From: a virus
Virus genome (UHGV): UHGV-1339911
DNA length: 12,823 bases
Direction: 5' to 3' (one strand)
In this document: positions 1 through 12,823 of the stretch, one piece after another
Layout: every line of letters starts with the position of its first letter
Numbering within the stretch: the first letter of the stretch is position 1
Notes under the pieces: model-generated
Databases searched by the model: none
What the model saw: the letters and a program-made list of their open reading frames with translations, nothing else
What the model was told of the DNA's origin: nothing
Made by a program: the position numbers and the translations under genes

Positions 1-1272
1 AACGCCAGACAGGTCGAGACAGCAAAGCCAAAAGAGAAAACCTACAAAATGGCCGATGGCGGCGGTTTGTATCTCGAGGTTTCGGCTAAGGGTTCTAAAT
101 ACTGGCGCATGAAATACAGACGCCCCTCTGACAAAAAAGAGGATCGCCTCGCTTTTGGTGTTTGGCCCATGGTGACACTTGCTCAGGCAAGAGCAAAGCG
201 TGACGAGGCTAAAAAGCTCTTAGTGCAGGGCATTGACCCAAAAGCCGAGCAGAAAGAAGCTCAGGCTGAGAATTCGGGCGCATACACTTTCGAAACAATT
301 GCTCGTGAATGGCATGCCAGTAATAAGCGCTGGAGTGAAGACCATCGATCACGCGTTCTGCGCTATCTTGAGCTTTATATTTTTCCTCATATCGGTTCGT
401 CCGACATTCGGCAGCTTAAAACCAGCCACCTGTTAGCCCCGATTAAAAAAGTTGATGCCAGTGGCAAACACGATGTCGCTCAGCGCCTGCAACAGCGCGT
501 CACGGCCATTATGCGTTATGCCGTACAGAACGATTACATCGACTCTAATCCAGCCAGTGACATGGCCGGTGCGTTATCTACAACCAAAGCACGACACTAT
601 CCGGCTTTACCCTCTAGCCGCTTCCCTGAGTTTCTTGCACGTCTTGCTGCATATCGTGGCCGTGTAATGACAAGGATCGCGGTCGAGCTTTCCTTACTAA
701 CTTTTGTACGTTCCAGTGAGTTACGTTTCGCGCGATGGGATGAGTTCGACTTCGATAAATCTCTTTGGCGTATACCTGCAAAGCGAGAAGAAATTAAAGG
801 CGTGCGTTACTCGTATCGTGGCATGAAGATGAAAGAGGAGCATATCGTTCCTCTTAGTCGACAGGCGATGGTTTTGTTAGAGCAACTCAAGCAGATTAGT
901 GGCGATAAAGAGTTACTTTTTCCAGGAGATCACGACTCAACAAAGGTTATGAGTGAAAACACGGTAAACAGCGCATTGCGTGCGATGGGCTATGACACGA
1001 AAATTGAAGTTTGCGGGCATGGATTTAGAACGATGGCTCGTGGTGCGTTGGGTGAGTCAGGTTTGTGGAGTGATGATGCAATTGAGCGTCAATTGAGTCA
1101 CTCTGAGCGTAATAATGTGCGTGCAGCTTATATCCATACTTCTGAGCATTTGGATGAACGTCGTTTAATGGTGCAGTGGTGGGCAGATTTTCTTGATGCA
1201 AATAAAATTGAATTAATATCACCTTTTGATTACGGAAAGACGGTAATATTAAATGAAAACACCCAGCAATAG
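1..1272 (+). CDS. int: P4-family tyrosine recombinase (integrase), 5' end truncated by the window edge
   Basis: ORF track 49..1272, but the frame is open from base 1 with no stop before the ATG at 49, so the true N-terminus lies upstream. N-terminal KxYK-x-DGGGLYLEV-(x8)-W-R-x-K-YR motif is typical of P4-like integrases. C-terminal catalytic signatures HGFRTMARGAL (His-x-x-Arg) and RAAYIHT (Tyr) are present. Stop TAG at 1270-1272. Confidence 0.9.
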   Translation, partial: NARQVETAKPKEKTYKMADGGGLYLEVSAKGSKYWRMKYRRPSDKKEDRLAFGVWPMVTLAQARAKRDEAKKLLVQGIDPKAEQKEAQAENSGAYTFETIAREWHASNKRWSEDHRSRVLRYLELYIFPHIGSSDIRQLKTSHLLAPIKKVDASGKHDVAQRLQQRVTAIMRYAVQNDYIDSNPASDMAGALSTTKARHYPALPSSRFPEFLARLAAYRGRVMTRIAVELSLLTFVRSSELRFARWDEFDFDKSLWRIPAKREEIKGVRYSYRGMKMKEEHIVPLSRQAMVLLEQLKQISGDKELLFPGDHDSTKVMSENTVNSALRAMGYDTKIEVCGHGFRTMARGALGESGLWSDDAIERQLSHSERNNVRAAYIHTSEHLDERRLMVQWWADFLDANKIELISPFDYGKTVILNENTQQ

Positions 1273-1277
1273 CTGGG
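1262..1277. terminator. Hairpin (CCCAGC-AATA-GCTGGG) between the convergent int and SIR2-like genes; possible bidirectional intrinsic terminator
   Basis: Perfect 6-bp inverted repeat with a 4-nt loop overlapping the int stop codon. On the minus strand it is followed by a T-rich tract (complement of 1251-1261, TGTTTTCATTT); on the plus strand by CGTTTATAAT. Only 20 bp separate the two stop codons. Confidence 0.4.
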
Positions 1278-1292
1278 CGTTTATAATGATAG

Positions 1293-4200
1293 TTAAATGT
1301 GATTATCCCATTCATTTTTTATTTCGTCGAATTCATTTTTAGAATTGCACATTTTTTCCCATTCCTGAATTATATTTGGTTGTACAATACCTAGACGTTT
1401 GTTGTTGCAATAAATAGATGCTGCTAATTTTGTCGCGCTAAGTTTTTTTTCTAGATAGCTTAAGTGGTCATTATTGTTAATAAATTCTTTCCCATCCTCG
1501 AATAATAGGCCAGTTAAACCGCAATGAATTTTATTCATAAACTCATCAGAAATTGTAAAATCGCTAGAGCTTATTATAAACCTGACTAAATCATAGCATT
1601 CAGGAAGACATGGATCACGATTCCAGGCTATTTTTTCACTAAGTATTGTGATAATTTCTGGTGGGTACTCTTTATTTCTTATTAGTACATATACAGAGTT
1701 TATTGCTTCAATGACTTCTGTTTTAATGAAACTATATAACCCAGAACCTATATCTTTTAATAGGTCGCTTGAATGGTTCTTTTGATTCATTAAAAGCATA
1801 GTTAGTGCAGAATTTACAGGGATTCCTGATTTTTTCATCTTTTCTATCAAGTTTGTAATATGAATAATTGATTCACTATTCAATTTATTATAGTGGATTT
1901 CTAAAATTGTAGTGATAATTCTTGTTATGTTTTTAAATCTATGTGTAAATTCTTTTGATAAATCGTCCCGTTTCTCAAGCCAAATTTTATCATTGGAAAA
2001 CCACTTATTCATTTCAGATATGATCTCAGATAAGATAGTTTCGGACGGGGTTATATGATGAAGGGCACCATTAAGTTCGTTACAATAATTGTCGTTACCA
2101 CCTGTTATAGTAACGCTATTACCATTTTGAATAGGAAAATTATATGTTTTTATAATGGAAATAAATTTATCCTGAATATTTTCATTTTCAGGGTGAAGGT
2201 TATCTATAAAGAAAAATCTATAGTAACCACTATTAATTGGAAATCCATATTCATCGCGTTTAGCCCATAGGTTTTTTATTAGTTTTGAAATATCAGACTT
2301 GTTAAGTAGATCAAGATTATACAATGTAATTAACTTTTGTGATGCTGCTTTTCTTAAATCTTGATCTTCGCTTTTTAAATCATCAATATCTTTTCTGATT
2401 TTGGAAGATGTTATTTTTTTCAATAAACCATTAGGTCGTTTGATAATTGAAGCCAGTAGACATTCAAAAGGAGTAATAAAATTATATTTTTGACCCATAC
2501 CTAAATGATCATTAGAGGGTTTCGACGGATAATCGATAAAAATATCTATGAGGGATATTTTTTGAGAGTCATTCATACTCGCTATAGTACGTCTAAGCAA
2601 ATCCTTTGTCTCAGCAAAATCATAAAACCCCTCAGAGTTATATAACTTAAGAAGAAGGGTTATTATATCTTTTTTCTTTTCAAAAGAAACTTTTGTTACT
2701 AGTCTTGATAATATTTCAGGAATGATTGATAGGGTGGATAACTCTATTTCAAGCTTATCGCTAAGTCTTTCATCTATTTTTTTTAAGATGATTTGTTCGT
2801 ACTTTTTGAAGTATCCATCAAATAAATCTTCAACTTTTTTTCTTTCTAATAAAGAGAGTCTACCACGGTTAAAAAGACTTTTTGCTTTATCTTTATTAAA
2901 TGTTCTAAATATTGCAAAAATAGCGAATTCAGGGGAGTATGGATATATATGTCGGGATGCGTTTTCAACTATGCCACTAAAAATATTCATTCCAGGTATA
3001 TGGAAAGGCAGTCCAAGTTCTTCTGCTAGCAATAGAAAGTTGAAAGCATCTAAGGATTTAAGTTCCGCGGGACTCCCACCAAAATAAGTTGTCACAGTTC
3101 TTCTGTTAAGATCAAAATCAGTATCCTTTGAATTCTCAGATATACCTTGTGGGGATTCTAGTTTGATTTCTAAATACTTAATTTCGTTTTCTGGATCGCT
3201 ACGATATTGAGATAAAGTTGCTAATCTAGAATTGTATTCTGAAGTGTAATCATCGTTCTTGTTATTATTTTTCAAGCTTCTCTTGAACATTCTTAATATA
3301 TAAATGCAATAAGCTTCTTGGGACTCACTTGAATAGTCGATGTTCCTTGATGATAAAAGACTATTTCGGCGAATAGTTGATAAAGTTTCTTCAAGAAGAT
3401 TAATGGCTTCATCGAGCATGCCAAACTCAGCAAGTAGTCCCGCTCTTTTAATTTCATACTGTGGAAGAAGTTTATTTGTTTCCCAATTTGAAAGTTTTGT
3501 TCTGGCTTCATCAAAGTTCAATCTAAAATAAGAATGTAGGATATTCTCGTAATAGAATTCAGATTTAACTTCTGGAGTTAGTCTTTCTAAATTGGGAATC
3601 AGTAAATGATTTAATTCTTTCCATTTTGCTGTGAGATTCTCTTGGCGACAAAATTTCATTAAATTAATAACGATGGCTGAATATTTATCATCCAGATCTT
3701 TGTTTATTATGTTGTTAGTGTATTCGTCTTTATATTTTTCTGTGAGTTTAAATAAAAACTCTGCTGTGTCATTAAATATAGGTAGTAATGCTTTATTTAA
3801 TCGCCAAGTTAACTCATAACCAAAATTAATTTCTGCATATTTTTCCCAAATCACATCGTAGGTAACTACTGCCAACCACTCTCTAGTATCACGCCAAAGA
3901 TTACTGCGATTAGATTCAGGCAAAATAAGCCAGTTAGGATAAGATTTTCTTAATGATCCCCACTCAATAATGCATCGATTTATTTTTTCCATTTTTATTT
4001 CAGGGGTGTCATCGAAAGAAATGTGTTCTCGATTTTTTATTATTGGCCACTCTATTAAATTTTCTTTGTTTTTTGTTTCGTAGAGGGACTCTATAAAATG
4101 TTGATGAGCTAAATAATGATCTTTGCCAAAGTCCCCAAGTAAACTCAAGTCCACGATTGATATGTTTCTTTTTTCAAGCAATTTGCGCTGTGCTTCATTG

Positions 4201-4922
4201 AATGAGAAAAGACCTATCAGATAAATTTTTGGTGAGTTTTCTGCTCCAAGATTATCTCTTATCCAGCCAATCCAGTTAAGGAAATTAGGATCATCACCAG
4301 AAAAACCAATCAAACAAAGAGTATTTTCAATGAGTGATTGCTGTACTGTATTTACAAATGGTGAGTTATCTAAAGGATATTTCCTGTAATCTTCTTCAGT
4401 AATTATAAAAGGCCGCTCTGATGGGAAGCTTCCGTGAAGTTTGATGATCCTAGGTCTTTCAGCATTCATCAAATCACTTTTATTCAGTACCACATCATAT
4501 TTTCTGGAGTCAACATATACACATGCACGCTCAAGCAACGTGTCATAGTTAGTTGTAAAAACATCAACCCATGGTAACGATAAAAGAGAGATGTGTAATT
4601 TAGATGGTTCATACTCTTTATCAGGAACATGATCCATTATCAACTTATCAAGTGTTGCACGGCCGAAGGCGGCTTGTACCTCATCGCCAAGTTTGAGTAC
4701 ATTTAAATATTTGTTTAAATTTTTCTCACAGTAAATATTTTCATAAAAAATATCGCCTAAATCATTCCACATTGGGAATTGTCGTGCCTTGTTTGTTAAA
4801 GGTTTTGCATTTCGACTAAATCCAGCACCAATGAGTATTGCTGCGCGACCATCCCAAAGGCGAGATGATATATTATTTAATAGCGGTTTGATTTTTTTCT
4901 TATTTGTCATTATATATTCCAT
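1293..4922 (-). CDS. Large SIR2-domain fusion protein (defence-associated sirtuin / DSR-like); candidate single-gene NAD-depleting anti-phage protein with an unassigned ~950-aa C-terminal region
   Basis: Uninterrupted 1209-aa ORF. N-terminal ~260 aa carry SIR2_2-type motifs in canonical order: AAILIGAGFS (aa 27-36), VFTTNYDTLLE (aa 121-131, putative catalytic Asn125), IIKLHGS (aa 159-165, putative catalytic His163), CLIGFSGDDPNF (aa 203-214). No Walker A/P-loop seen anywhere in the protein. Gene is visibly AT-rich compared with its neighbours and lies between int and the late operon. Start-codon choice (M1 at 4920-4922 vs M5) is uncertain; no strong SD for either. Confidence 0.8.
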   Translation of the reverse strand: MEYIMTNKKKIKPLLNNISSRLWDGRAAILIGAGFSRNAKPLTNKARQFPMWNDLGDIFYENIYCEKNLNKYLNVLKLGDEVQAAFGRATLDKLIMDHVPDKEYEPSKLHISLLSLPWVDVFTTNYDTLLERACVYVDSRKYDVVLNKSDLMNAERPRIIKLHGSFPSERPFIITEEDYRKYPLDNSPFVNTVQQSLIENTLCLIGFSGDDPNFLNWIGWIRDNLGAENSPKIYLIGLFSFNEAQRKLLEKRNISIVDLSLLGDFGKDHYLAHQHFIESLYETKNKENLIEWPIIKNREHISFDDTPEIKMEKINRCIIEWGSLRKSYPNWLILPESNRSNLWRDTREWLAVVTYDVIWEKYAEINFGYELTWRLNKALLPIFNDTAEFLFKLTEKYKDEYTNNIINKDLDDKYSAIVINLMKFCRQENLTAKWKELNHLLIPNLERLTPEVKSEFYYENILHSYFRLNFDEARTKLSNWETNKLLPQYEIKRAGLLAEFGMLDEAINLLEETLSTIRRNSLLSSRNIDYSSESQEAYCIYILRMFKRSLKNNNKNDDYTSEYNSRLATLSQYRSDPENEIKYLEIKLESPQGISENSKDTDFDLNRRTVTTYFGGSPAELKSLDAFNFLLLAEELGLPFHIPGMNIFSGIVENASRHIYPYSPEFAIFAIFRTFNKDKAKSLFNRGRLSLLERKKVEDLFDGYFKKYEQIILKKIDERLSDKLEIELSTLSIIPEILSRLVTKVSFEKKKDIITLLLKLYNSEGFYDFAETKDLLRRTIASMNDSQKISLIDIFIDYPSKPSNDHLGMGQKYNFITPFECLLASIIKRPNGLLKKITSSKIRKDIDDLKSEDQDLRKAASQKLITLYNLDLLNKSDISKLIKNLWAKRDEYGFPINSGYYRFFFIDNLHPENENIQDKFISIIKTYNFPIQNGNSVTITGGNDNYCNELNGALHHITPSETILSEIISEMNKWFSNDKIWLEKRDDLSKEFTHRFKNITRIITTILEIHYNKLNSESIIHITNLIEKMKKSGIPVNSALTMLLMNQKNHSSDLLKDIGSGLYSFIKTEVIEAINSVYVLIRNKEYPPEIITILSEKIAWNRDPCLPECYDLVRFIISSSDFTISDEFMNKIHCGLTGLLFEDGKEFINNNDHLSYLEKKLSATKLAASIYCNNKRLGIVQPNIIQEWEKMCNSKNEFDEIKNEWDNHI

Positions 4923-4963
4923 CTGTTGTTCATGGCTATACTGAGTGTGCCGCAGTTGCTTCG

Positions 4964-4969
4964 ATTATA
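4964..4969 (-). promoter_or_regulatory. Candidate -10 hexamer (TATAAT on minus strand) about 42 bp upstream of the SIR2-like gene start
   Basis: Minus-strand sequence reads ...GGTCAAAATTTGCTTATAATCGA... ahead of the ATG at 4922. No convincing -35 element; based on the hexamer match only. Confidence 0.3.
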
Positions 4970-5502
4970 AGCAAATTTTGACCGCAGGGACATCATTACG
5001 AATGAAATTTGCACATCTCGGATTATCGTACATATCTATTGTTGAAAAAACATGCTTTCACTGCAACCCTCACTCGCTTCGCAAGGCGTTTTCAATTCAA
5101 ATTCAAACATGGTCTGCGACCGTACGGTATCTGGTGCTGGTCAAGATAAAAAGGTTGATGAAACGTATAGCTGTATCATGCTCACTTTGTATGACAAAGC
5201 GTGCGTGCTAACTGTATATGTGCAGCTTTCCACTGTTATTGCGGAGAACCTGATATTTAATAGGCTATTATCCCCTCAATAGTTGTCCATACCTCCTAAC
5301 AGTACAGCATTATTTGGAAGGGAGTTCTCTTTATCGTATTGATTTTACCTCAACACCTGCGCTGATATATAAGGCTGAGGTTACCATTTTCTTCTTCATC
5401 GCGAGCAGCCCCGCCCGCCTGCCCGCTTCGCTTAACAGACTGGTTTTCATGCACCCCGTAAATCGTCTCAGAAGCCACCACACAAGGGCTTTCGCGTCAA
5501 AA

Positions 5503-5537
5503 ATGGCGCATGAGACTAATGCGTTTTCATGCGCCAT
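5503..5537. repeat. Perfect 11-bp inverted repeat (ATGGCGCATGA ... TCATGCGCCAT) with 13-bp spacer
   Basis: Read directly: 5503-5513 is the exact reverse complement of 5527-5537. Lies in the apparently non-coding stretch between the cargo gene and ogr. Confidence 0.6.
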
Positions 5538-5581
5538 AGATATGCACTCATACGCTCTCAGGCCAGCCAGGGAAAAGGCGT

Positions 5582-5606
5582 AAAAAATCCCGGTACAGGA
5601 CCGGGA
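5582..5606 (-). terminator. Rho-independent terminator ending the sid-psu-ogr late operon
   Basis: 7-bp GC-rich stem (TCCCGGT / ACCGGGA, 5588-5594 and 5600-5606) with 5-nt loop, followed on the minus strand by a run of 6 T (complement of A 5582-5587). Sits 22 nt downstream of the ogr stop. Confidence 0.55.
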
Positions 5607-5628
5607 CTACGTGGGCGTATTTTGCTAA

Positions 5629-5901
5629 TCAGACAGGAATTTGCTGACGGCTTGACAGCTTTGACGCGGAGCCATAGCGGTTGAGAGTTTGCTGTTGTTT
5701 TTCAGGCATTTGTGCTTTGTCTGATTCCCGTTCATTGCGCCAAGGCTTCATAATTATCGTATCCACGCTTTCCAGAGCGGTAAATGTGCAGGAACATTCC
5801 AGATTCTGGCACTGATACCATGAGCGTTTAACCGATGGAGCTTCATAGGCACTGGTTCTGGCGTGAGCGACCGTCCCACATTCAGGACACTTCAGGGCCA
5901 T
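5629..5901 (-). CDS. ogr: Ogr/Delta-family zinc-finger late-gene transcriptional activator (single Ogr-like unit, 91 aa)
   Basis: MALKCPECGTVAHARTS...YQCQNLECSCTF...ESV matches the Ogr/Delta Cys4 zinc-finger signature (C-x2-C ... AHARTS ... QCQN-x2-C). I place the start at the internal ATG 5899-5901, which has a strong SD (AAGGAGG about 8 nt upstream) and sits immediately after the psu stop; the ORF-track start at 6003 overlaps psu and lacks an SD. Confidence 0.85.
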   Translation of the reverse strand: MALKCPECGTVAHARTSAYEAPSVKRSWYQCQNLECSCTFTALESVDTIIMKPWRNERESDKAQMPEKQQQTLNRYGSASKLSSRQQIPV

Positions 5902-5902
5902 A

Positions 5903-6457
5903 TCAGTACCCTCCTTTTTCATTAAGTCGGTTAAGGCGGGCCAGGAAAACTTTATGTTGTGCTGGGGTGAAACTGGCTGAAGCATCAGCGCACATTGATG
6001 CATCCACCGTTAATCCGGTTTCGTCGATAATGCTCTTGTATGCTGCTGAAATTACCGGAGTACGCACTTCCGTTTGTCGGGCTACAGCGGTTCGTAATAT
6101 TTTCATTGCCGCCTCAAGCCCGTATGGAGCGCAAAGAAAAGGAGCCAGAGCGTCAGTGAGTGCATCACCATGCTCGCTCATGAAGTTTTCCGTTGCGCTT
6201 GTAACACAACTCTCCAGCACAATCTGGTGAGCATAAAGACCATCCCGTGCAGCACAGTTAATCTGCCATTCGAGGACTGCAAGACGCTCACGAAGATCCT
6301 CAAGCTGGCTGGCATATGCTGCCAGTTTTTCTTCAGTATCCAGCAGAGCCGCCAGACGAAGCTGGCAGGTACTTTGCGTATTACGTAGTGTCAGCCAGCT
6401 TTTTATCGCCGAGCGGTAATCGTTGAGTGCTTCCTGAGTAATGCTTCCGGCATTCAT
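5903..6457 (-). CDS. psu: Psu-like protein (polarity suppression / capsid decoration protein of P4-type satellites)
   Basis: 184 aa. Segments FMSEHGDALTDALAPFL and the C-terminal FTPAQHKVF resemble P4 Psu as I recall it (FMQQHGTALAAALAPEL, FTPAQNMIF). Start overlaps the sid stop (ATGA), implying translational coupling. Confidence 0.75.
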   Translation of the reverse strand: MNAGSITQEALNDYRSAIKSWLTLRNTQSTCQLRLAALLDTEEKLAAYASQLEDLRERLAVLEWQINCAARDGLYAHQIVLESCVTSATENFMSEHGDALTDALAPFLCAPYGLEAAMKILRTAVARQTEVRTPVISAAYKSIIDETGLTVDASMCADASASFTPAQHKVFLARLNRLNEKGGY

Positions 6458-7206
6458 TTCTTCTCGCCCCCTTTAACCATGTCACGCTGTTTAAGCATCC
6501 GTGAACGCGCTGCAGGGCTGGGGGATTGTCTGGCATCTTGGATGGCTTTATCGTCCGCATAAATGCTGATCCCCGGCAGGGTAATATCATCCGTTGAAGA
6601 TACGTTACAGGACAGTGCCGGAGTGGTGAGTTGCTCGCTGATAAATTGCTTCAGCACACTTTCGGGGTCGTTTACGGTATGAACTACACCGATAACAGCA
6701 GAAGCGCTTCGGCCCAGAGTCATTTTCAGCAGTCCAAGGATCTGAATAAGTTTCTGGCCGTGTTCCTTCATAAACTCATTCCAGAGCCACACTGCATGAG
6801 TTTCAATCAGGCGATTATGCTCACTGATGTAGTGGTTTGCAGCATCCGCAGTTTTCCAGGGCAGGAATTCATTTTCTGCCGCCTGAGCTGCCAGCAAATC
6901 TTCGAACTCATCCAGTGTTTCGCGTCCGAGGGCGATTTCTGCCCGCAGTTTTTTCATGCGTGGCGTCATATTTCCCTGATTCTCACGAAACAGGTTTCGC
7001 CATTCATCATTAAGCGCCTGCGTTTCCGTTTTTGTATCTTCCTGACGTTTACGGATAGTTTCAATCATTGCAGCAGCTTCAGTTTGTTTTCGCCGTTCTT
7101 CCTGCCAGACAGCTTTTGCTACCTTAACTTTATCCACCGCTTCGCGAATTTTCGGTGGGAGGGAGGGTGTAATGTTTGCATCAGGGATCTGGTTAACAGT
7201 AGTCAT
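6454..7206 (-). CDS. sid: Sid-like capsid size-determination (external scaffold) protein
   Basis: 250 aa, charged and helix-prone, first gene of the leftward operon, immediately upstream of psu and ogr/delta. Size and position match P4 Sid (~244 aa). Assignment is mainly from synteny and size; I cannot confirm sequence similarity without a search. GGAG lies 5 nt before the ATG. Confidence 0.6.
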   Translation of the reverse strand: MTTVNQIPDANITPSLPPKIREAVDKVKVAKAVWQEERRKQTEAAAMIETIRKRQEDTKTETQALNDEWRNLFRENQGNMTPRMKKLRAEIALGRETLDEFEDLLAAQAAENEFLPWKTADAANHYISEHNRLIETHAVWLWNEFMKEHGQKLIQILGLLKMTLGRSASAVIGVVHTVNDPESVLKQFISEQLTTPALSCNVSSTDDITLPGISIYADDKAIQDARQSPSPAARSRMLKQRDMVKGGEKK

Positions 7207-7278
7207 GACTGCTCCGGTAGTGTTTTATTGTCGTGTCAATTGTGCCGGTGCCCATACAAGCGCACTACCGAGGGGGAT

Positions 7279-7310
7279 TGTGCCAGTGACAGAACAATGA
7301 CCTTGTTCTG
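7279..7310 (-). promoter_or_regulatory. Candidate Ogr/Delta-activated late promoter element (TGT-N12-ACA dyad) overlapping an 8-bp palindrome, upstream of sid
   Basis: TGT (7279-7281)-N12-ACA (7294-7296) matches the activator-site consensus described for P2/P4 late promoters. Its centre is about 80 bp upstream of the sid ATG, compatible with a site centred near -55 and a short leader. Adjacent perfect palindrome CAGAACAA-tgacc-TTGTTCTG at 7290-7310. Confidence 0.45.
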
Positions 7311-7360
7311 GCTAGCCAGAGAAATGCGTCATGTCTGATCTTCAACTTTCCTTTAATACA

Positions 7361-7580
7361 TACTATTCACTACTGTTCACTTTGATAAAAAAATTGATAA
7401 TACAGCTAGTTAAGAGGTGAAGGGTTGACAAGGCAGTATTCAGTGACTGTTCATGAGTGTTCATCGGAAGGCTGCGTGATTTATGATTTTTTTTCATCAA
7501 AAGTGAAATTTTTATTCCTAATGATTATTTTATTATTGTTCCTCACAACTATTCACCACTCTTCAGTAGTATTCAACAGA
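7361..7580. repeat. Array of iteron-like octamers related to TGTTCACC (ori-like) in the AT-rich control region
   Basis: TATTCACT 7364-7371 and TGTTCACT 7374-7381 (10-bp phasing); TGTTCATG 7448-7455 and TGTTCATC 7458-7465 (10-bp phasing); TTCACC at 7552-7557 and on the minus strand at 7416-7421. No ORF of 60 aa or more in 7339-8060 on this strand. Confidence 0.4.
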
Positions 7581-8118
7581 TGATGAAATAGACGATTTTT
7601 CTTTGCCGGGAAATAACATGATTCCCCCTTTTCCTGGTGTTGCATTTCAATCTGATTTTTATAAAACTAGAACTGTTCGGTCTTTTATGAATTTATTTGT
7701 ATATATTTTTAGGTTAAGAATGCGTGGTTATTGATTTTATGCGGTTTTAATGCTTCTGAGCTTGATGCAATTCATGAGTATATCCTGAAGTTAGGTTTGC
7801 AATGTAAAACCATATGTAGAAATTGTGCACCCCTGCTGAATGGGTTGCGGTTTCAGTACCATTAAGTTCTATGACTTATGGGGTAGTAACCCCTGGATGA
7901 AAGTTAGTTCCTATTAATGCCCCTGTATTTATAGTTCGCAGGCATAATATTTATCATGCCATTTTATGTGGTTTGATATAGTTTTAAATTCCATTAAATC
8001 AATATGTGACACTAAATAAATAATGGGTGCGTAAGCGAGCAATATATACATAATAAGGAGCTACCTGAATCCGGGGGGATTTATCCGGACTGATGAAGGA
8101 ATTAAAGAGGGTAGATAA

Positions 8119-8379
8119 ATGCATGATATTTCTGTTTCTGCGCCAGCTCCGGCTGCGCCATTATTTCCTGTGCTGAACCAGCATGAGCGATTTTTACGTC
8201 TTCCCGAGGTGATGCATTTATGCGGCTTGTCCCGCTCAACTATATACGACCTGATAAGCCGCGATGCTTTCCCGAAGCAGATCCCGCTTGGTGGTAAAAA
8301 TGTTGCCTGGGCACAGTCAGAGGTAAGCGCATGGATGGCGGATCGTATAAGTGCCCGCGGACGGGGATGTGATGCATAA
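8119..8379 (+). CDS. alpA: AlpA/Vis-family phage DNA-binding regulator (excisionase-like HTH)
   Basis: 86 aa. [53 protein letters not shown] is the typical AlpA/Vis helix-turn-helix core. SD GAGGG sits 7 nt upstream of the ATG. Confidence 0.85.
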
Positions 8380-8473
8380 TGATGCCTGAACGCATTAATC
8401 CCCTTTTTTCTGGCTTGCATCCTGCAGTCATTTCCAGGTATAGTTTTCCCGCTGCCGCAAAATCGGCTGCCGG

Positions 8474-8725
8474 GCGTAGGAACCCGAGTTACTTATTGGC
8501 GACACCAGACGCGCCGTGCGTCTTTTTTTACGTCGTTGCTCAGGCACACCCATTTTTCGGGCTGCGGTGCTTATACCTTAGTCCCTGTCAGATAATGGTG
8601 GTCCGGGCGGGGCAGCCTTCGGGCTGGCCGGTTTCCAATAAGGCCGGTATTCCTACCCCCGTCTGGGCTACCACCCATGAGCGTAGGAACTCCGGTGGTG
8701 GCATTTACCGCGACTTATTGGAGGT
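8474..8725 (+). promoter_or_regulatory. Candidate P4 CI-RNA-like immunity leader (seqA / seqB / seqC-like complementary repeats)
   Basis: Direct repeats GCGTAGGAAC...ACTTATTGG at 8474-8499 and 8681-8721. Between them, 8635-8658 (CCAATAAGGCCGGTATTCCTACCC) is approximately their reverse complement. The second direct repeat overlaps the GGAGG SD of the downstream small gene. The region is GC-rich and its conceptual translation (first ~118 aa of ORF 8379..8924) is low-complexity. Confidence 0.35.
8507..8529 (+). terminator. Intrinsic terminator-like hairpin plus T7 tract inside the alpA-downstream leader
   Basis: Stem AGACGC / GCGTCT (8507-8512 and 8518-8523), loop GCCGT, followed by 7 T (8523-8529). 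Lies inside the ORF-track ORF 8379..8924, arguing against that ORF's 5' part being translated. Confidence 0.5.
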
Positions 8726-8732
8726 TGCCCTT

Positions 8733-8924
8733 ATGGCTACGATCCTCGCCCCTTCACATCCTCAATTTATATTTGTTTTTGCCGCCGTTCGTCGTGCAGA
8801 ACGTAAACCACGTATCAGTATGCTGCGTATCGTCGCCAGCAATGAGCATCATGCACGTCTTTCACTGGTCCATGAGTATGTGCTTTGCCTTGCTGCTCGC
8901 CTGCCTGTCCGGGAGGTGATGTGA
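8733..8924 (+). CDS. Small early-operon protein, possibly Icd-like (host cell division inhibitor family)
   Basis: 63-aa short form starting at ATG 8733 with GGAGG 8 nt upstream ([63 protein letters not shown]). The C-terminal ...ARLPV... pattern resembles Icd-like proteins of P4-type elements as I recall them. Family assignment is tentative. Confidence 0.45.
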
Positions 8925-9488: not shown

Positions 9489-11819
9489 ATGTCAGGAATG
9501 AAAGTCAGTCAGGCCGTGAAGGCTGCCCGCGGTCACTGGGCTAAGATTCTGCCAGCGCTGGGCGTGAATATATTGAAAAATCGCCATCAGCCTTGCCCGG
9601 TCTGTGGCGGTAAAGATCGTTTTCGCTTCGACGATCAGGAAGGACGCGGAACATGGTTCTGCAATCAGTGCGGTGCCGGGGATGGTATAGCGCTTGTCAC
9701 CAGGGCACTGAATGTGGATATCAGTGAAGCAGCTGACAGGATACATGGACTGACACATGGTCTGTCTGTAGTTAATTCCGAAGTCAGGGCGTTAACCGCC
9801 GATACCGATAGCGGGAAAGATGCAGCAGCACTTGCCGCGCGACTGCTGCAAGCCTCACGTGAATCTGCCGGAAACACTTATCTTACACATAAAGGTTTCC
9901 CGGAGCATATTTGCCATGAGCTGACTTCAGCTCATAAAACCGGTGGGGTGATGTTCCGCCCCGGTGATTTGATCGTCCCGCTCTATAACGCTGACGGGGA
10001 GCTGGTGAATATTCAGCTTATCAGTGGCAATGGTAGCAAGTGTTTTCTTAAAGGAGGTCAGGTTAAGGAGGCCTATCATCTGATAGAAGGGGGCGGGAGT
10101 TCTTTAAGAAGGATGTGGATTGCGGAAGGTTACGCCACGGCGCTTACCATTCATCATCTGACAGGAGAAGCCGTCATGGTGGCATTTTCGTCGGTCAACT
10201 TTCTTTCTCTGGCCAGCGTTGCCCATAACAAGTATCCGGGATATCAGTTAATTATTGCAGCGGACCGCGATCTGAATGGTTCAGGCCAGAACAGGGCTGA
10301 AACTGCTGCAAAAGCGTGTCAGTGTGACATTGTGCTGCCACCGGTTTTTGGTGACTGGAATGATGCGCTTACCCAATACGGAGAGGAATCCACCCGGAAG
10401 GCAATTCTTGAGGCTTTGAAGCCACATAATGCCAGTCCTTTCGACACAATGAGTGAAGCAGAATTCACAGCGATGAGTGTCAGCGAAAAAGCTCAGAGGG
10501 TTCGGGAGCATTACAGGGATGCACTGGCGGTTGATCCGAACGGGCAGCTTTTATCCCGCTACGAGTCTGGAGCGTGGAAAGTGATTTCTCAGTCAGATTT
10601 TTCCCGAGATGTCGCAGCCCTTTTCCAGCGCCTCGGTGCACCGTTTTCCTCAGGAAAAATTGCCTCACTGGTGGAAACATTAAAGTTAATTGTTCCGCAG
10701 CAGCAAAATCCGGCACGTCATCTGATTGGTTTTCGTAATGGCGTCCTCGATACGCGAACAGGGCTTTTTAGTCCGCACTGTAAAGAGAACTGGCTGCGTA
10801 CCCTGTGTGAAGTCGATTTCACGCCACCGGTAAAGGGGGAAACGCTTGAAACTCATGCCCCGGCATTCTGGCGCTGGCTGGACCGGGCTGCCGGACACAA
10901 GCCAGCTAAACGCGACATTATTCTTGCGGCGTTATTTATGGTGCTGGCGAACCGCTATGACTGGCAGCTCTTTCTGGAAGTGACTGGCCCTGGTGGAAGT
11001 GGCAAAAGTATTCTGGCTGAAATTGCGACCATGCTTGCTGGAGAGGATAACGCCACCTCTGCGACCATTGAAACGCTGGAGTCCCCGCGAGAACGTGCGG
11101 CTCTGATAGGTTTTTCTCTTATTCGCCTGCCTGATCAGGAGAAGTGGAGCGGCGACGGCGCCGGGCTTAAGGCTATAACTGGTGGCGATGCGGTATCGGT
11201 GGACCCCAAGTATCAGAATGCTTATTCAACACATATTCCGGCGGTTATCCTGGCCGTAAATAATAATCCTATGCGCTTCACTGATCGTAGTGGTGGTGTG
11301 TCCCGCAGGAGAGTGATTCTGCATTTTCCTGAGCAGATAGCACCGGAAGAACGCGATCCGCAGCTGAAAGATAAAATTGCTCGAGAACTGGCTGTGATTG
11401 TTCGCCAGCTCATGCAGCGTTTCAGCGATCCGATGAGCGCCAGAACATTGCTTCAGTCGCAGCAGAATTCAGATGAGGCTCTCACCATCAAGCGTGATGC
11501 TGATCCAGCATTTGATTTTTGTGGCTATCTTGAGGCATTACCTGACACCAACGGTATGTTTATGGGGAACGCTAATATTGTCCCACGCCAGCCACGTACC
11601 TACCTTTACCATGCCTACCTCGTATACATGGAGGCTAATGGCTATAAAAACATCCTGAGTCTTACGATGTTTGGCAAAGGGTTGCCAGTCATGCTGAAGG
11701 AGTACGGGCTACATTATGAGAAACGGCGAACTAATCAGGGAATGCAAACTAACCTCACTTTGAAAGAGGAGAGTAATGCAGACTGGCTGCCCAAGTGTGA
11801 TGAGCCAATATTAAAATAA
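9489..11819 (+). CDS. P4 alpha-type bifunctional DNA primase/helicase (zinc-binding primase domain, TOPRIM, P-loop helicase)
   Basis: Zn-finger CPVCGG...FCNQCG; TOPRIM-like acidic motifs (WIAEGYATALT, IIAADRD); Walker A VTGPGGSGKS. I prefer the start at ATG 9489 (MSGMKVSQ...), preceded by GAGGGAGA, over the ORF-track start at 9438. Confidence 0.9.
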   Translation: MSGMKVSQAVKAARGHWAKILPALGVNILKNRHQPCPVCGGKDRFRFDDQEGRGTWFCNQCGAGDGIALVTRALNVDISEAADRIHGLTHGLSVVNSEVRALTADTDSGKDAAALAARLLQASRESAGNTYLTHKGFPEHICHELTSAHKTGGVMFRPGDLIVPLYNADGELVNIQLISGNGSKCFLKGGQVKEAYHLIEGGGSSLRRMWIAEGYATALTIHHLTGEAVMVAFSSVNFLSLASVAHNKYPGYQLIIAADRDLNGSGQNRAETAAKACQCDIVLPPVFGDWNDALTQYGEESTRKAILEALKPHNASPFDTMSEAEFTAMSVSEKAQRVREHYRDALAVDPNGQLLSRYESGAWKVISQSDFSRDVAALFQRLGAPFSSGKIASLVETLKLIVPQQQNPARHLIGFRNGVLDTRTGLFSPHCKENWLRTLCEVDFTPPVKGETLETHAPAFWRWLDRAAGHKPAKRDIILAALFMVLANRYDWQLFLEVTGPGGSGKSILAEIATMLAGEDNATSATIETLESPRERAALIGFSLIRLPDQEKWSGDGAGLKAITGGDAVSVDPKYQNAYSTHIPAVILAVNNNPMRFTDRSGGVSRRRVILHFPEQIAPEERDPQLKDKIARELAVIVRQLMQRFSDPMSARTLLQSQQNSDEALTIKRDADPAFDFCGYLEALPDTNGMFMGNANIVPRQPRTYLYHAYLVYMEANGYKNILSLTMFGKGLPVMLKEYGLHYEKRRTNQGMQTNLTLKEESNADWLPKCDEPILK

Positions 11820-11830
11820 CGATTAACTGA

Positions 11831-11855
11831 CCCGGCTGATGCCGGGTTTCTTATT
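11831..11855 (+). terminator. Rho-independent terminator after the primase gene
   Basis: Stem CCCGGC / GCCGGG (11831-11836 and 11841-11846), loop TGAT, followed by TTTCTTATT. Begins 12 nt after the primase stop. Confidence 0.6.
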
Positions 11856-11877
11856 GGAAACGCACAAATGTAGAGAT

Positions 11878-12090
11878 AGCTGTTCACTCTTCACCTAGCT
11901 GTTAACACATAATCAATTGATATATATGTAAAAAATTACAGGGTGAATAGTGTGCATGGTTTTGCGAAAAAAAAGTATTTTTTGTAGAGTCAAGTCCCGG
12001 TTTGGATCCGTTTAACGGAACCTAACTGGATTGACTATTTCTCTGAGAATTTTTGGATAAATAATCAACAAAAATCAAAATGTGAACAGA
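11878..12090. repeat. Iteron-like octamers (crr-like) downstream of the primase gene
   Basis: TGTTCACT 11881-11888, TTCACC 11890-11895, AGCTGTT duplicated at 11878-11884 and 11897-11903, GGTGAATA 11942-11949 (minus-strand TATTCACC), GTGAACA 12083-12089 (minus-strand TGTTCAC). An exact TGTTCACC also occurs further right at 12773-12780. Confidence 0.4.
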
Positions 12091-12180
12091 GAATGCTGGG
12101 GGCACAAAAGGGGGCATAATTGAATTAACTATAATTAAATTTCAATTTTTACAATAAGTTAAATTTATGTGCGAGTCCGG

Positions 12181-12212
12181 CCTTCGCACCTTCGCACCTT
12201 CGCACCATCGGA
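12181..12212 (+). repeat. Tandem 8-bp repeat (CCTTCGCA) x3 plus a degenerate fourth unit
   Basis: Read directly: CCTTCGCA at 12181-12188, 12189-12196, 12197-12204, then CCATCGGA. Confidence 0.8.
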
Positions 12213-12317: not shown

Positions 12318-12409
12318 GATGTGGATACAGCTACAGCTGCGGCTATATCCCGATTCGATAATGTTTGTACCCACACAAAACCCTTGAAAGGCTACAAGGC
12401 TGAAATTGT

Positions 12410-12595
12410 CTAAACCATAGAGATGATTTTTATGATCCAGTCTTTCTCTTGTTGAGATAGTTCCAGTTTGCTCACTCGTGTTAAGAAGGTATTGATCACC
12501 TGAACATCCGAATTGGTGAGCCTATTTAATAGAGCGGGTGGTATACCTTTACTAACAATTGCTTTGCGGTGACTTTCGTAGTTTTTATTACTCAT
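12410..12595 (-). CDS. Small hypothetical protein (61 aa)
   Basis: ORF with a good SD (GAGGA 6 nt upstream of the ATG at 12593-12595). No recognisable motif; could be a fragment or a small regulator. Confidence 0.4.
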   Translation of the reverse strand: MSNKNYESHRKAIVSKGIPPALLNRLTNSDVQVINTFLTRVSKLELSQQEKDWIIKIISMV

Positions 12596-12823
12596 TGGTG
12601 ATCCTCAAATATCATTGTATAGCGGCATTGATCGTTTCCAGCAACCTTTACTTACTCACTTCAAACTGCATCCTCGTAGACTGTTCCACTACAATAATCG
12701 AAAAGGCGCGGATGTCCATTCAGGTATCCCGCTAATACGTATAGCAATAACAATGGTTTATGCGGTGCGCGCTGTTCACCCTTATGCCAGATTTTTATAT
12801 TGGCAATTGCCTGCTGTAGCGAT

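What the first reader, a model, noticed from the sequence alone, without database searches (positions are those of the whole stretch)
1..7206. Compositional island: AT-rich cargo gene between a P4-type integrase and the sid-psu-ogr operon
The 3.6-kb cargo gene is conspicuously AT-rich (long A/T runs, AAA/AAT/ATT-heavy codons; my rough by-eye estimate is near 30% G+C versus roughly 50% in int, psu, sid and the primase gene; not computed). It is bracketed by hairpins/terminators on both sides (1262-1277 and 5582-5606). This is the signature of a swapped-in cargo cassette from a low-GC donor inside a conserved satellite backbone. The 700 bp between the cargo gene and ogr (4923-5628) has no convincing gene and may be a remnant of a previous occupant.
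Basis: partly seen in the sequence, partly recalled or inferred. Interest (0 to 1): 0.5.

Follow-up and report, generated by a model that had tools for sequence, protein, structure and literature searches.

The report
Dsr2 defence cassette in P4-satellite hotspot

Summary
The cassette at window 1235-5399 has 32.8% GC against 48.2% for the rest of the element. dsr2 has GC 31.7% and GC3 25.5%, and 300-bp windows of cassette and backbone do not overlap. The window is an E. coli P4-like satellite at tRNA-Leu, 99.9% identical to strain STEC388, where RefSeq already annotates dsr2. The cargo passes the NCBIfam Dsr2 equivalog cutoff and matches PADLOC Dsr2 end to end, with invariant SIR2 catalytic residues N125 and H163. 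Sister elements with the same int and ogr-psu-sid backbone carry SIR2-HerA, Lamassu, PD-Lambda-2-like or ABC-3C genes instead. This is the psu-int hotspot of Rousset et al. 2022.

- The right boundary is the cos-like site (5400-5431), not the 5582-5606 hairpin, which is the backbone operon terminator.
- The "empty 700 bp" is 229 bp of conserved backbone plus a 477-bp cassette-linked leader.
- A "low-GC donor" is not supported. Every tenant of the slot has 30-36% GC, and dsr2 relatives down to 54% identity sit next to P4-type integrases across Enterobacterales at about 30-34% GC.

One caveat: only the SIR2 domain and the overall architecture resemble the structurally studied B. subtilis DSR2. 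Sensor homology is not shown, so the trigger is unknown.

The parts
1..1272 (+). P4-type tyrosine integrase. The CDS starts 9 nt upstream of the window according to RefSeq. The last ~12 codons and the stop (about 1235-1272) are cassette-specific.
   Evidence: Pfam Arm-DNA-bind_3, Phage_int_M and Phage_integrase. RefSeq annotation in STEC388. The reading frame is open from window base 1. Homology to sister integrases ends at about 1235-1240.
1235..5399 (.). The variable cassette: dsr2 with its terminator and its leader. GC 0.328.
   Evidence: Backbone homology in 1,290 E. coli records stops at about 1234 and resumes at about 5396-5408. The cassette is found in 4 (+1 truncated) of 5,426 genomes. 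Composition.
1251..1282 (-). Intrinsic-terminator-like hairpin (core stem 1262-1277) plus U-tract downstream of dsr2. It lies between the convergent int and dsr2 genes, and the int stop codon lies inside it.
   Evidence: -18.6 kcal/mol, z = -5.6 on the minus strand; -15.0 kcal/mol, z = -5.1 on the plus strand. Pectobacterium and Providencia have versions downstream of their dsr2 that keep the stem paired.
1293..4922 (-). dsr2, an anti-phage defence-associated sirtuin. The longest ORF is 1209 aa; RefSeq and the database cluster start at 4910, giving 1205 aa.
   Evidence: PADLOC Dsr2 E = 0, 1698.7 bits, full length. NCBIfam NF041819 equivalog 1439.3 bits against a cutoff of 1400. RefSeq names it dsr2. 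P0001 is 100% identical at 1205 aa.
4068..4922 (-). N-terminal SIR2 (NADase-type) domain, about aa 1-285. Catalytic Asn125 (codon 4548-4550) lies in TTNYD and His163 (codon 4434-4436) in KLHGS.
1293..4067 (-). Helical middle region plus alpha-solenoid C-terminal region of Dsr2 (about aa 286-1209), the presumed sensor.
   Evidence: AF2 models with pLDDT 80.8 (full length) and 84.4 (residues 290-1200), all-helical. The best fold matches are generic HEAT/ARM solenoids; BsDSR2 ranks only 49th.
4923..5399 (-). Cassette-linked non-coding leader of dsr2. It is better conserved near the gene (4923-5060) and next to cos (5270-5395), and poorly conserved in between.
   Evidence: Alignment with the Enterobacter hormaechei element, including frame-breaking indels. 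No other match in E. coli genomes. No Rfam hit and z = -0.83.
4964..4969 (-). Candidate -10 hexamer TATAAT of a dsr2-own promoter, with no good -35 element. Inferred, not shown.
   Evidence: Conserved as TTGCTTATAATC in E. coli and Enterobacter leaders; coordinates. The consensus promoter scan did not flag it.
4993..5005 (-). Conserved palindrome TCATTCGTAATGA upstream of the candidate -10. A possible operator; speculative.
5400..5431 (-). cos-like block GCGAAGCGGGCAGGCGGGCGGGGCTGCTCGCG. It is the right-hand boundary of the hotspot and homologous in position and sequence to the P4 cos junction.
   Evidence: P4's ends read AAAGCGGGCG|GGCGAGGCGGGGAAAGCAC. In the multiple alignment, 8 enterobacterial elements are conserved up to this block and unrelated after it. 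The same is true of 21 IMG/VR P4-like contigs. Cleavage has not been shown.
5432..5581 (-). Conserved cos-proximal backbone spacer, including the inverted repeat GGCGCATGA...TCATGCGCC (5505-5535).
   Evidence: About 88% identity to the Enterobacter element and 85% to an E. coli element with a different dsr2. Repeat coordinates.
5582..5606 (-). Intrinsic terminator of the sid-psu-ogr operon. It belongs to the backbone, not the cassette.
   Evidence: Stem TCCCGGT/ACCGGGA followed by U6. Conserved, with base changes that preserve pairing, in all sister elements whatever their cargo.
5629..5901 (-). ogr/delta-like zinc-finger late-gene activator (90 aa).
   Evidence: Pfam Ogr_Delta 3.5e-16. RefSeq coordinates.
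5903..6457 (-). psu (polarity suppression and capsid decoration protein).
   Evidence: Pfam Psu 7.2e-35.
6454..7206 (-). sid-like capsid size determination gene.
   Evidence: Weak Pfam Psu-family hit, 3e-07. Its position and length match P4 sid.

Best explanation
The window is a roughly 12.4-kb P4-like phage satellite integrated at an E. coli tRNA-Leu gene. Between its integrase and its cos packaging site lies the variable 'defence hotspot' typical of this satellite family. In this copy the hotspot holds one self-contained cassette (1235-5399): the single-gene anti-phage system dsr2 with its own leader, a candidate promoter and its own terminator.

Shown: the cassette junctions lie inside the last ~12 codons of int and immediately beside the cos-like block, and relatives with the same backbone carry other defence systems between the same two junctions.

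Inferred: cassettes are exchanged by recombination between related satellites, using the conserved int and cos/ogr flanks as homology arms. Rousset et al. suggested that the cos ends start this process.

Inferred from family membership and invariant catalytic residues: Dsr2 is an NAD+-hydrolysing SIR2 enzyme that stays inactive until its large helical-solenoid region binds a phage component. It then depletes NAD+ and aborts the infection. This protects the host population, and with it the satellite and possibly its P2-like helper.

The low GC content is the normal composition of the mobile defence-gene pool that cycles through this slot. It does not mark a recent transfer from a low-GC organism.
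For: Satellite identity: Pfam hits for int, Ogr/Delta, Psu, Ash, DUF5375 and the primase; Rfam C4 and isrK; tRNA-Leu attL and a 15-nt attR repeat equal to the P4 att core.

Hotspot: 1,290 E. coli records match the flanks but only 4-5 match the cassette. Sister elements carry SIR2-HerA, LmuABC, PD-Lambda-2-like plus cII, ABC-3C or IS66 copies. The boundaries are sharp at cos and at the int 3' end. The literature describes exactly this locus, adjacent to cos (PMC9122126; PMC13586616).

DSR NADase and abortive-infection mechanism: Garb et al. (bioRxiv 10.1101/2021.12.14.472415).

Composition.
Against: No experiment shows that this copy is expressed or active. The candidate promoter lacks a -35 element and was not picked up by the consensus scan. 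The cos variant differs from the P2/P4 19-mer, and no P2-like phage with the same core was found, so packaging competence and the helper are not established. The sensor region shows no specific similarity to the only mechanistically studied DSR2, so the activation step is inferred from architecture alone.
Confidence: 0.88

Rival explanations
1. One reading: the cassette was imported recently from a low-GC donor organism and has not yet adjusted to E. coli composition.
For: The GC deficit is large, about 16-18 points. The SIR2-coding core has about 69% DNA identity to dsr2 genes on Clostridium and Bacillus plasmids.
Against: Those Firmicutes proteins are only about 36% identical overall. Enterobacterial dsr2 genes that have diverged to 41-84% protein identity all keep 30-34% GC, and those examined lie next to P4-type integrases. 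Unrelated tenants of the same slot have the same 30-36% GC. The gene is AT-shifted relative to its host in 44 of 49 loci from many phyla.
Confidence: 0.08
2. The poorly conserved middle of the leader (about 5060-5395) is a decayed remnant of a previous hotspot occupant, left behind by imprecise cassette replacement.
For: The 477-bp gap from cos to dsr2 is longer than the roughly 195 bp in another E. coli dsr2 element. The 2026 NAR study reports that small intergenic stretches in these loci are probably recombination remnants (PMC13586616).
Against: There is no similarity to anything else in 5,426 E. coli genomes at blastn sensitivity, nor to the phage collection. The ORFs have no Pfam or PADLOC hit. 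The whole spacer is collinear with the Enterobacter element that carries the closest dsr2, so it has travelled with dsr2 for a long time.
Confidence: 0.15
3. Dsr2 here works like B. subtilis DSR2 in full detail: a tetramer whose C-terminal domain binds a siphovirus tail-tube protein to switch on the NADase.
For: The name and the architecture are shared. Foldseek with the full-length model returns BsDSR2 chains as the top 44 hits over about 1,100-1,200 columns. BsDSR2 gives the best TM-score (0.33) among matches to the sensor-only model.
Confidence: 0.3
4. The cargo is not a defence gene but a satellite or host function, such as a protein deacetylase.
For: None beyond the generic SIR2 domain.
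Against: It has a full-length match to curated defence-family models. Its closest SIR2 relatives are the NADase effectors ThsA, KomC and Avs5. It sits in a locus shown experimentally to hold defence systems (PMC9122126).
Confidence: 0.02

Closest known systems
P4-like satellite defence hotspot between psu and int, adjacent to cos (Rousset et al. 2022, Cell Host Microbe, PMC9122126; extended in NAR 2026, PMC13586616)
   Same: The element type, the interval, the sharp boundary at cos, the 1-5 kb size, the high turnover among near-identical backbones and the defence-gene content are all the same. SIR2-domain cargos are already listed there.
   Different: Nothing essential differs. The gene order here is sid-psu-ogr, not P4's sid-delta-psu, so ogr rather than psu is the gene next to cos. 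The cos core is a variant of the P2/P4 19-mer. The one SIR2 system cloned in that paper (pFR88) is a different protein.
Dsr2 family as defined by NCBIfam NF041819 and PADLOC PDLC02184 (named after the DSR2 of Gao et al. 2020)
   Same: It matches end to end above the curated cutoff. It is a single-gene system of about 1,200 aa with an N-terminal SIR2 domain and invariant catalytic Asn and His.
   Different: None detected. RefSeq already labels the identical protein dsr2.
Bacillus subtilis 29R DSR2 (Garb et al. 2022; cryo-EM structures 8WKS, 8WKT, 8WKX, 8K9A and others)
   Same: An N-terminal SIR2 NADase domain followed by an all-helical middle region and an alpha-solenoid C-terminal region. The presumed logic is the same: a sensor solenoid gates the NADase, leading to abortive infection.
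   Different: It is about 200 aa shorter. No sequence similarity is detectable even with a family profile. By sequence, this protein's SIR2 domain is closer to ThsA than to BsDSR2. Specific similarity of the sensor region is not demonstrated. Neither the tail-tube trigger nor inhibition by DSAD1 can be transferred.
Thoeris ThsA SIR2 domain (SeThsA 7UXT; BcThsA 6LHX)
   Different: ThsA has a C-terminal SLOG domain that senses a ThsB-made signal. This protein has a ~900-aa helical solenoid instead and no partner gene.
Phage P4 gop-beta-cII region (NC_001609)
   Same: It occupies the same slot between cos and int and has the same AT-rich composition (36% GC against a 51% backbone).
   Different: The genes are unrelated.

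Membership tests
P4-like phage satellite | P4-type tyrosine integrase next to a tRNA attachment site with duplicated att core | tested here: met
   Pfam integrase domains. tRNA-Leu lies 164 bp upstream of int in STEC388. A 15-nt repeat of the tRNA 3' end, equal to the P4 att core, lies at window 12172-12186.
P4-like phage satellite | Helper-exploitation module (sid, psu, delta/ogr), alpha primase-helicase, and CI/C4 immunity RNA | tested here: met
   Pfam Psu, Ogr_Delta and the Zn_Ribbon_Prim/Toprim/D5_N/Pox_D5 set. Rfam C4 at 82.3 bits and isrK at 72.1 bits.
P4-like phage satellite | Functional cos site cut by a P2-family terminase | tested here: inconclusive
   A cos-homologous GC-rich block lies at the expected position (5400-5431) and is conserved in all relatives. 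It differs from the P2/P4 19-mer, and no P2-like phage with the same core was found. Cleavage cannot be tested here.
P4 psu-int defence hotspot (Rousset 2022) | Lies between the psu operon/cos and int | tested here: met
   The cassette at 1235-5399 is bounded by the int 3' end and the cos-like block.
P4 psu-int defence hotspot (Rousset 2022) | Different gene sets in the same interval of otherwise homologous elements | tested here: met
   SIR2-HerA, Lamassu, PD-Lambda-2-like, ABC-3C, IS66 copies, and a second dsr2 lineage.
P4 psu-int defence hotspot (Rousset 2022) | The cargo confers phage resistance | not testable with these tools
   This needs cloning and a phage challenge.
Dsr2 (NCBIfam NF041819 / PADLOC PDLC02184) | Full-length match above the curated family cutoff | tested here: met
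   1439.3 bits against a cutoff of 1400, model positions 1-1215 of 1215. PADLOC 1698.7 bits, positions 3-1221 of 1222.
Dsr2 (NCBIfam NF041819 / PADLOC PDLC02184) | N-terminal SIR2 domain with catalytic Asn and His | tested here: met
   Pfam SIR2_2 3e-24. N125 and H163 are invariant in 52 homologs. The SIR2 fold is confirmed.
Dsr2 (NCBIfam NF041819 / PADLOC PDLC02184) | Single-gene system (no conserved partner gene) | tested here: met
   Only dsr2 lies in the cassette. The neighbours of homologs vary apart from the satellite backbone.
Dsr2 (NCBIfam NF041819 / PADLOC PDLC02184) | Phage-triggered NAD+ depletion | not testable with these tools
   A biochemical or infection assay is required.
B. 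subtilis-type DSR2 (structurally characterised) | Detectable sequence homology to BsDSR2 | tested here: not met
   There are no DSR2 chains among PDB hits with phmmer at E <= 10 or with the 52-sequence profile at E <= 1.
B. subtilis-type DSR2 (structurally characterised) | Same domain architecture (SIR2, then helical MID, then alpha-solenoid CTD) | tested here: met
   AF2 secondary structure. Foldseek full-length alignments to BsDSR2 chains, E down to 6.5e-16.
B. subtilis-type DSR2 (structurally characterised) | Specific structural homology of the sensor (MID-CTD) region | tested here: inconclusive
B. subtilis-type DSR2 (structurally characterised) | Activation by a phage tail-tube protein; inhibition by DSAD1 | not testable with these tools
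   No experimental data for the enterobacterial clade were found in the searchable literature.

The most novel reading that the evidence does not exclude
The enterobacterial Dsr2 clade that rides in P4-like satellites shares only the SIR2 effector and a generic solenoid architecture with the B. subtilis DSR2 on which all mechanistic work was done. Its sensor may therefore recognise a different phage component, not a siphovirus tail tube. Because the satellite depends on a P2-like helper for its own spread, the sensor may be tuned to spare that helper. A minor addition: the conserved palindrome and -10 element in the leader could be a dedicated regulatory switch.
Probability: 0.4. Interest if true: 0.4.

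Novelty: already known. Interest (0 to 1): 0.15.

Why it matters
For a genome scan this is a positive control. A strong compositional island next to a P4-type integrase correctly flags a defence cassette. However, the locus type was described in 2022, the gene family in 2020-2022, and RefSeq already annotates this very sequence.

Two modest points come out of this check:
- The exact junctions of the cassette are mapped: inside the last ~12 codons of int, and at the cos-like block. This fits the published idea that exchange happens at cos.
- The databases' 'Dsr2' in Enterobacterales and the structurally studied B. subtilis DSR2 are not demonstrably homologous outside the SIR2 domain. Trigger and inhibitor knowledge should not be carried across by name.

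Tried and rejected
- An exact or 3-mismatch search for the P2/P4 cos 19-mer found nothing. cos was located instead by aligning the P4 junction with sister elements.
- blastn of the spacer against the phage collection gave no match.
- The search for related loci with the single protein returned nothing because its patterns were too specific. It worked with the family alignment.
- A search of IMG/VR for a helper phage sharing the cos-variant 20-mer returned 21 hits, all P4-like.
- I tried to confirm from the literature my recollection that the DSR2 tested by Gao et al. 2020 came from Cronobacter sakazakii and blocked lambda. The paper is not held and text searches were uninformative. It remains a recollection. 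The only related fact is that a Cronobacter protein is 78% identical (P0009).
- The SIR2 system cloned by Rousset et al. (pFR88) proved to be a different protein.
- A known RNA or stable structure in the leader was rejected.
- Small ORFs in the spacer (4945-5211, 5052-5282, 5314-5583, 5331-5537) were rejected as genes.
- The promoter-like match at 4938-4909 was rejected because it overlaps the start codons.
- H45 looked at first like a relic of cassette replacement. It is an IS1-mediated truncation of the same element.
Full report
**1. The observation**

A sliding-window profile shows GC falling from about 0.50 to 0.26-0.36 across roughly 1200-4950 and returning to about 0.50 by about 5400. 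Gene by gene, the 3.6-kb ORF 1293-4922 (minus strand) has GC 0.317 and GC3 0.255. int, ogr, psu, sid and the replication genes have GC 0.47-0.54 and GC3 0.43-0.55. A/T-ending codons are 77% against 54% (chi-square p = 3e-37), and amino acids encoded by AT-rich codons are enriched. In 300-bp windows the cassette and the backbone do not overlap: the cassette maximum is 0.42 and the backbone minimum is 0.453 (Mann-Whitney p = 4e-17).

No credible gene lies in 4923-5628.

**2. What the element is**

Pfam identifies the following:
- a P4-type integrase (1-1272);
- an Ogr/Delta zinc-finger protein (5629-5901);
- Psu (5903-6457);
- a Sid-like protein (6454-7206);
- Ash/Icd, DUF5375 and the alpha primase-helicase.

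Rfam finds the P4 immunity RNA C4/CI and isrK. The window is 99.9% identical to E. coli STEC388, where the element sits next to a tRNA-Leu gene. A 15-nt copy of the tRNA 3' end, identical to the P4 att core, marks attR at window 12172-12186. This is a roughly 12.4-kb P4-like satellite.

**3. What the cargo is**

The 1209-aa product (1205 aa from the RefSeq start) matches the PADLOC Dsr2 model end to end (E = 0, 1698.7 bits). It also passes the NCBIfam equivalog NF041819 (1439.3 bits against a cutoff of 1400). RefSeq already names the identical gene dsr2.

Pfam sees only the SIR2_2 domain (aa 121-256). In a 52-member family alignment the SIR2 catalytic motifs TTNYD (N125) and KLHGS (H163) are invariant. 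An AlphaFold2 model (pLDDT 80.8) shows a Rossmann-type SIR2 domain followed by about 900 residues of helical solenoid.

**4. The slot is a hotspot**

Of 5,426 complete E. coli genomes, 1,289 match parts of window 1-7206. The homology stops at about 1234 and resumes at about 5396-5408. The segment in between is present in four genomes, plus one copy truncated by IS1.

Other elements have a homologous int and an ogr-psu-sid module 88-98% identical, several at the same tRNA-Leu site. In the same interval they carry:
- SIR2-HerA (L002);
- Lamassu LmuABC (L003);
- a PD-Lambda-2-like set plus cII (L004);
- an ABC-three-component system (EDL933, L094);
- IS66 copies (L093).

[quoted passage not shown] 2022 (PMC9122126) and surveyed again in 2026 (PMC13586616).

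**5. Exact boundaries, and the '700 bp'**

I aligned the region downstream of ogr from eight enterobacterial elements and from P4. All share the operon terminator (5582-5606), a conserved spacer, and the GC-rich block GCGAAGCGGGCAGGCGGGCGGGGCTGC(G/T)CGCG (window 5400-5431). They become unrelated within a few bases after that block. P4's own cohesive-end junction aligns to the same block. Twenty-one IMG/VR P4-like contigs show the same break.

The right boundary is therefore the cos-like site. The 5582-5606 hairpin is the backbone's operon terminator, about 180 bp outside the cassette.

On the left, integrase homology ends at about 1235-1240. The last ~12 codons of int, its stop codon and the 1251-1282 hairpin are cassette-specific. 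Versions of that hairpin that keep the stem paired follow dsr2 in Pectobacterium and Providencia, so it is dsr2's terminator, set between two convergent genes.

- 229 bp of conserved backbone (5400-5628; about 88% identity to the Enterobacter element, and 85% to an E. coli element with a different dsr2);
- a 477-bp cassette-linked leader (4923-5399).

The leader is collinear only with the Enterobacter element that carries the closest dsr2, and their differences include frame-breaking indels. It has a better-conserved promoter-proximal part containing a perfect TATAAT (4964-4969) and a palindrome (4993-5005). It matches nothing else in E. coli genomes. A relic origin for its middle part is possible, and the 2026 paper suggests such relics exist, but nothing here supports it.

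**6. The 'low-GC donor' reading**

Three results argue against it.

First, every tenant of the slot is AT-rich: 30-36% GC against a backbone of 48-51%. This holds for unrelated systems and for P4's own gop-beta-cII.

Second, dsr2 relatives occur in Enterobacter hormaechei (84% identity), Pectobacterium (77%), Providencia (73%), Serratia marcescens (54%) and a second E. coli lineage (54%). All lie convergent with a P4-type integrase. All except the Providencia copy (type I RM and DUF4268 genes instead) have an Ogr/Delta gene on the other side, and three of them also have Psu-family genes. All have 30-34% GC.

Third, across 49 loci from many phyla the gene has lower GC than its flanks in 44 (median -7.4 points, Wilcoxon p = 1e-11), and its GC tracks that of the host (r = 0.88).

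No donor can be named. The nearest non-enterobacterial relatives are at most 38% identical. The plasmid matches are only the conserved SIR2 core of distant Firmicutes genes. Low GC is a standing property of this mobile defence-gene pool.

**7. How it most likely works**

Shown: the satellite backbone, the hotspot position, the cassette boundaries, the family membership and the intact catalytic motifs.

Inferred from established work on DSR proteins (Garb et al.; structural papers): the SIR2 domain is an NADase that is kept off until the helical sensor region binds a phage protein. NAD+ depletion then aborts the infection.

Inferred from Rousset et al.: the satellite benefits because it protects its host, and sometimes its helper, from competing phages. 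Cassettes are exchanged by recombination anchored at cos and int.

**8. A caveat on 'Dsr2'**

I then modelled the non-SIR2 part alone (residues 290-1200, pLDDT 84.4). Its best matches are generic HEAT/ARM solenoids: karyopherins, CAND1 and condensin. BsDSR2 falls to rank 49 (E = 1.8e-3), although it has the best TM-score in the list (0.33).

The architecture is therefore shared, specific sensor homology is not shown, and the trigger of this enterobacterial protein is unknown. From memory only, the DSR2 originally tested by Gao et al. 2020 was from Cronobacter and acted on lambda. I could not verify this. A Cronobacter protein is 78% identical to this one.

**9. Verdict**

The finding is real and correctly read in outline, but it is a textbook example of a known locus type holding a known, already annotated gene. 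The novelty rating is 'already known' and the interest is low. The only non-trivial open point is the nature of the sensor and trigger in this Dsr2 clade.

Noticed in passing
L112 (cos match 8429-8448; portal-like ORF 10253-11209) and L113 (cos match 4257-4276; portal-like ORF 1496-2452): Two IMG/VR P4-like contigs carry a gene 62.7% identical to the P2 portal protein gpQ about 1.8 kb beyond cos. It sits in the hotspot position, with the same placement relative to cos as Q has in P2. This could be a P2/P4 recombinant formed at cos or an assembly chimera. It is notable because the 2026 NAR study reports that P2 and P4 almost never exchange genes.
   Followed up: no
window 12172-12212: attR (CGAGTCCGGCCTTCG, equal to the tRNA-Leu 3' end and the P4 att core) runs directly into an 8-nt tandem repeat, CCTTCGCA x3 (12181-12212). 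The tRNA end therefore appears stuttered instead of cleanly duplicated.
   Followed up: partly
window 12396-12823 (L001 20396-23206): Beyond attR, RefSeq annotates a second, truncated tyrosine recombinase interrupted by IS100. This is a decayed second island integrated in tandem at the same tRNA-Leu site.
   Followed up: no
window 1235-1272: The last ~12 codons and the stop codon of int are cassette-specific. Each cargo gives the integrase a different C-terminal tail (for example ...FDYGKTVILNENTQQ* here, against ...YDFAKKTI* and ...FDFAKKNKA* in sister elements).
   Followed up: partly
window 5400-5431: The cos core of this large clade of E. coli and Enterobacter P4-like elements (GGCAGGCGGGCGGGGC...) differs from the canonical P2/P4 cohesive end GGCGAGGCGGGGAAAGCAC. 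No P2-like phage with the same core was found in IMG/VR or INPHARED, so the helper of this clade is not identified.
   Followed up: partly
window 5505-5535: A perfect 9-bp inverted repeat, GGCGCATGA(N13)TCATGCGCC, lies in the conserved cos-proximal backbone and is conserved in all sister elements. It may be a terminase- or protein-binding site, or a second terminator-like hairpin.
   Followed up: no
window 7207-8118 and 11820-12170: There are two further AT-rich patches (GC 0.365 and about 0.33-0.40). They lie where P4 has its ori and crr replication regions (sid to vis-like gene, and downstream of alpha). Only short direct repeats were found, and P4's type-1 octamer occurs once (12081).
   Followed up: partly
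L006 (E. coli 23AR0998) 5758-8201: An IS1-mediated deletion leaves only int plus 266 bp of the cassette (the dsr2 3' end and terminator), fused to a truncated fimF. This is a degraded copy of the same satellite.
   Followed up: yes
window 8379-8924: The C4/CI RNA (8591-8678) and isrK RNA (8451-8528) lie inside the ORF annotated as an Icd-like/Ash protein. This is the usual P4 immunity-region arrangement, so the protein and RNA annotations overlap.
   Followed up: no
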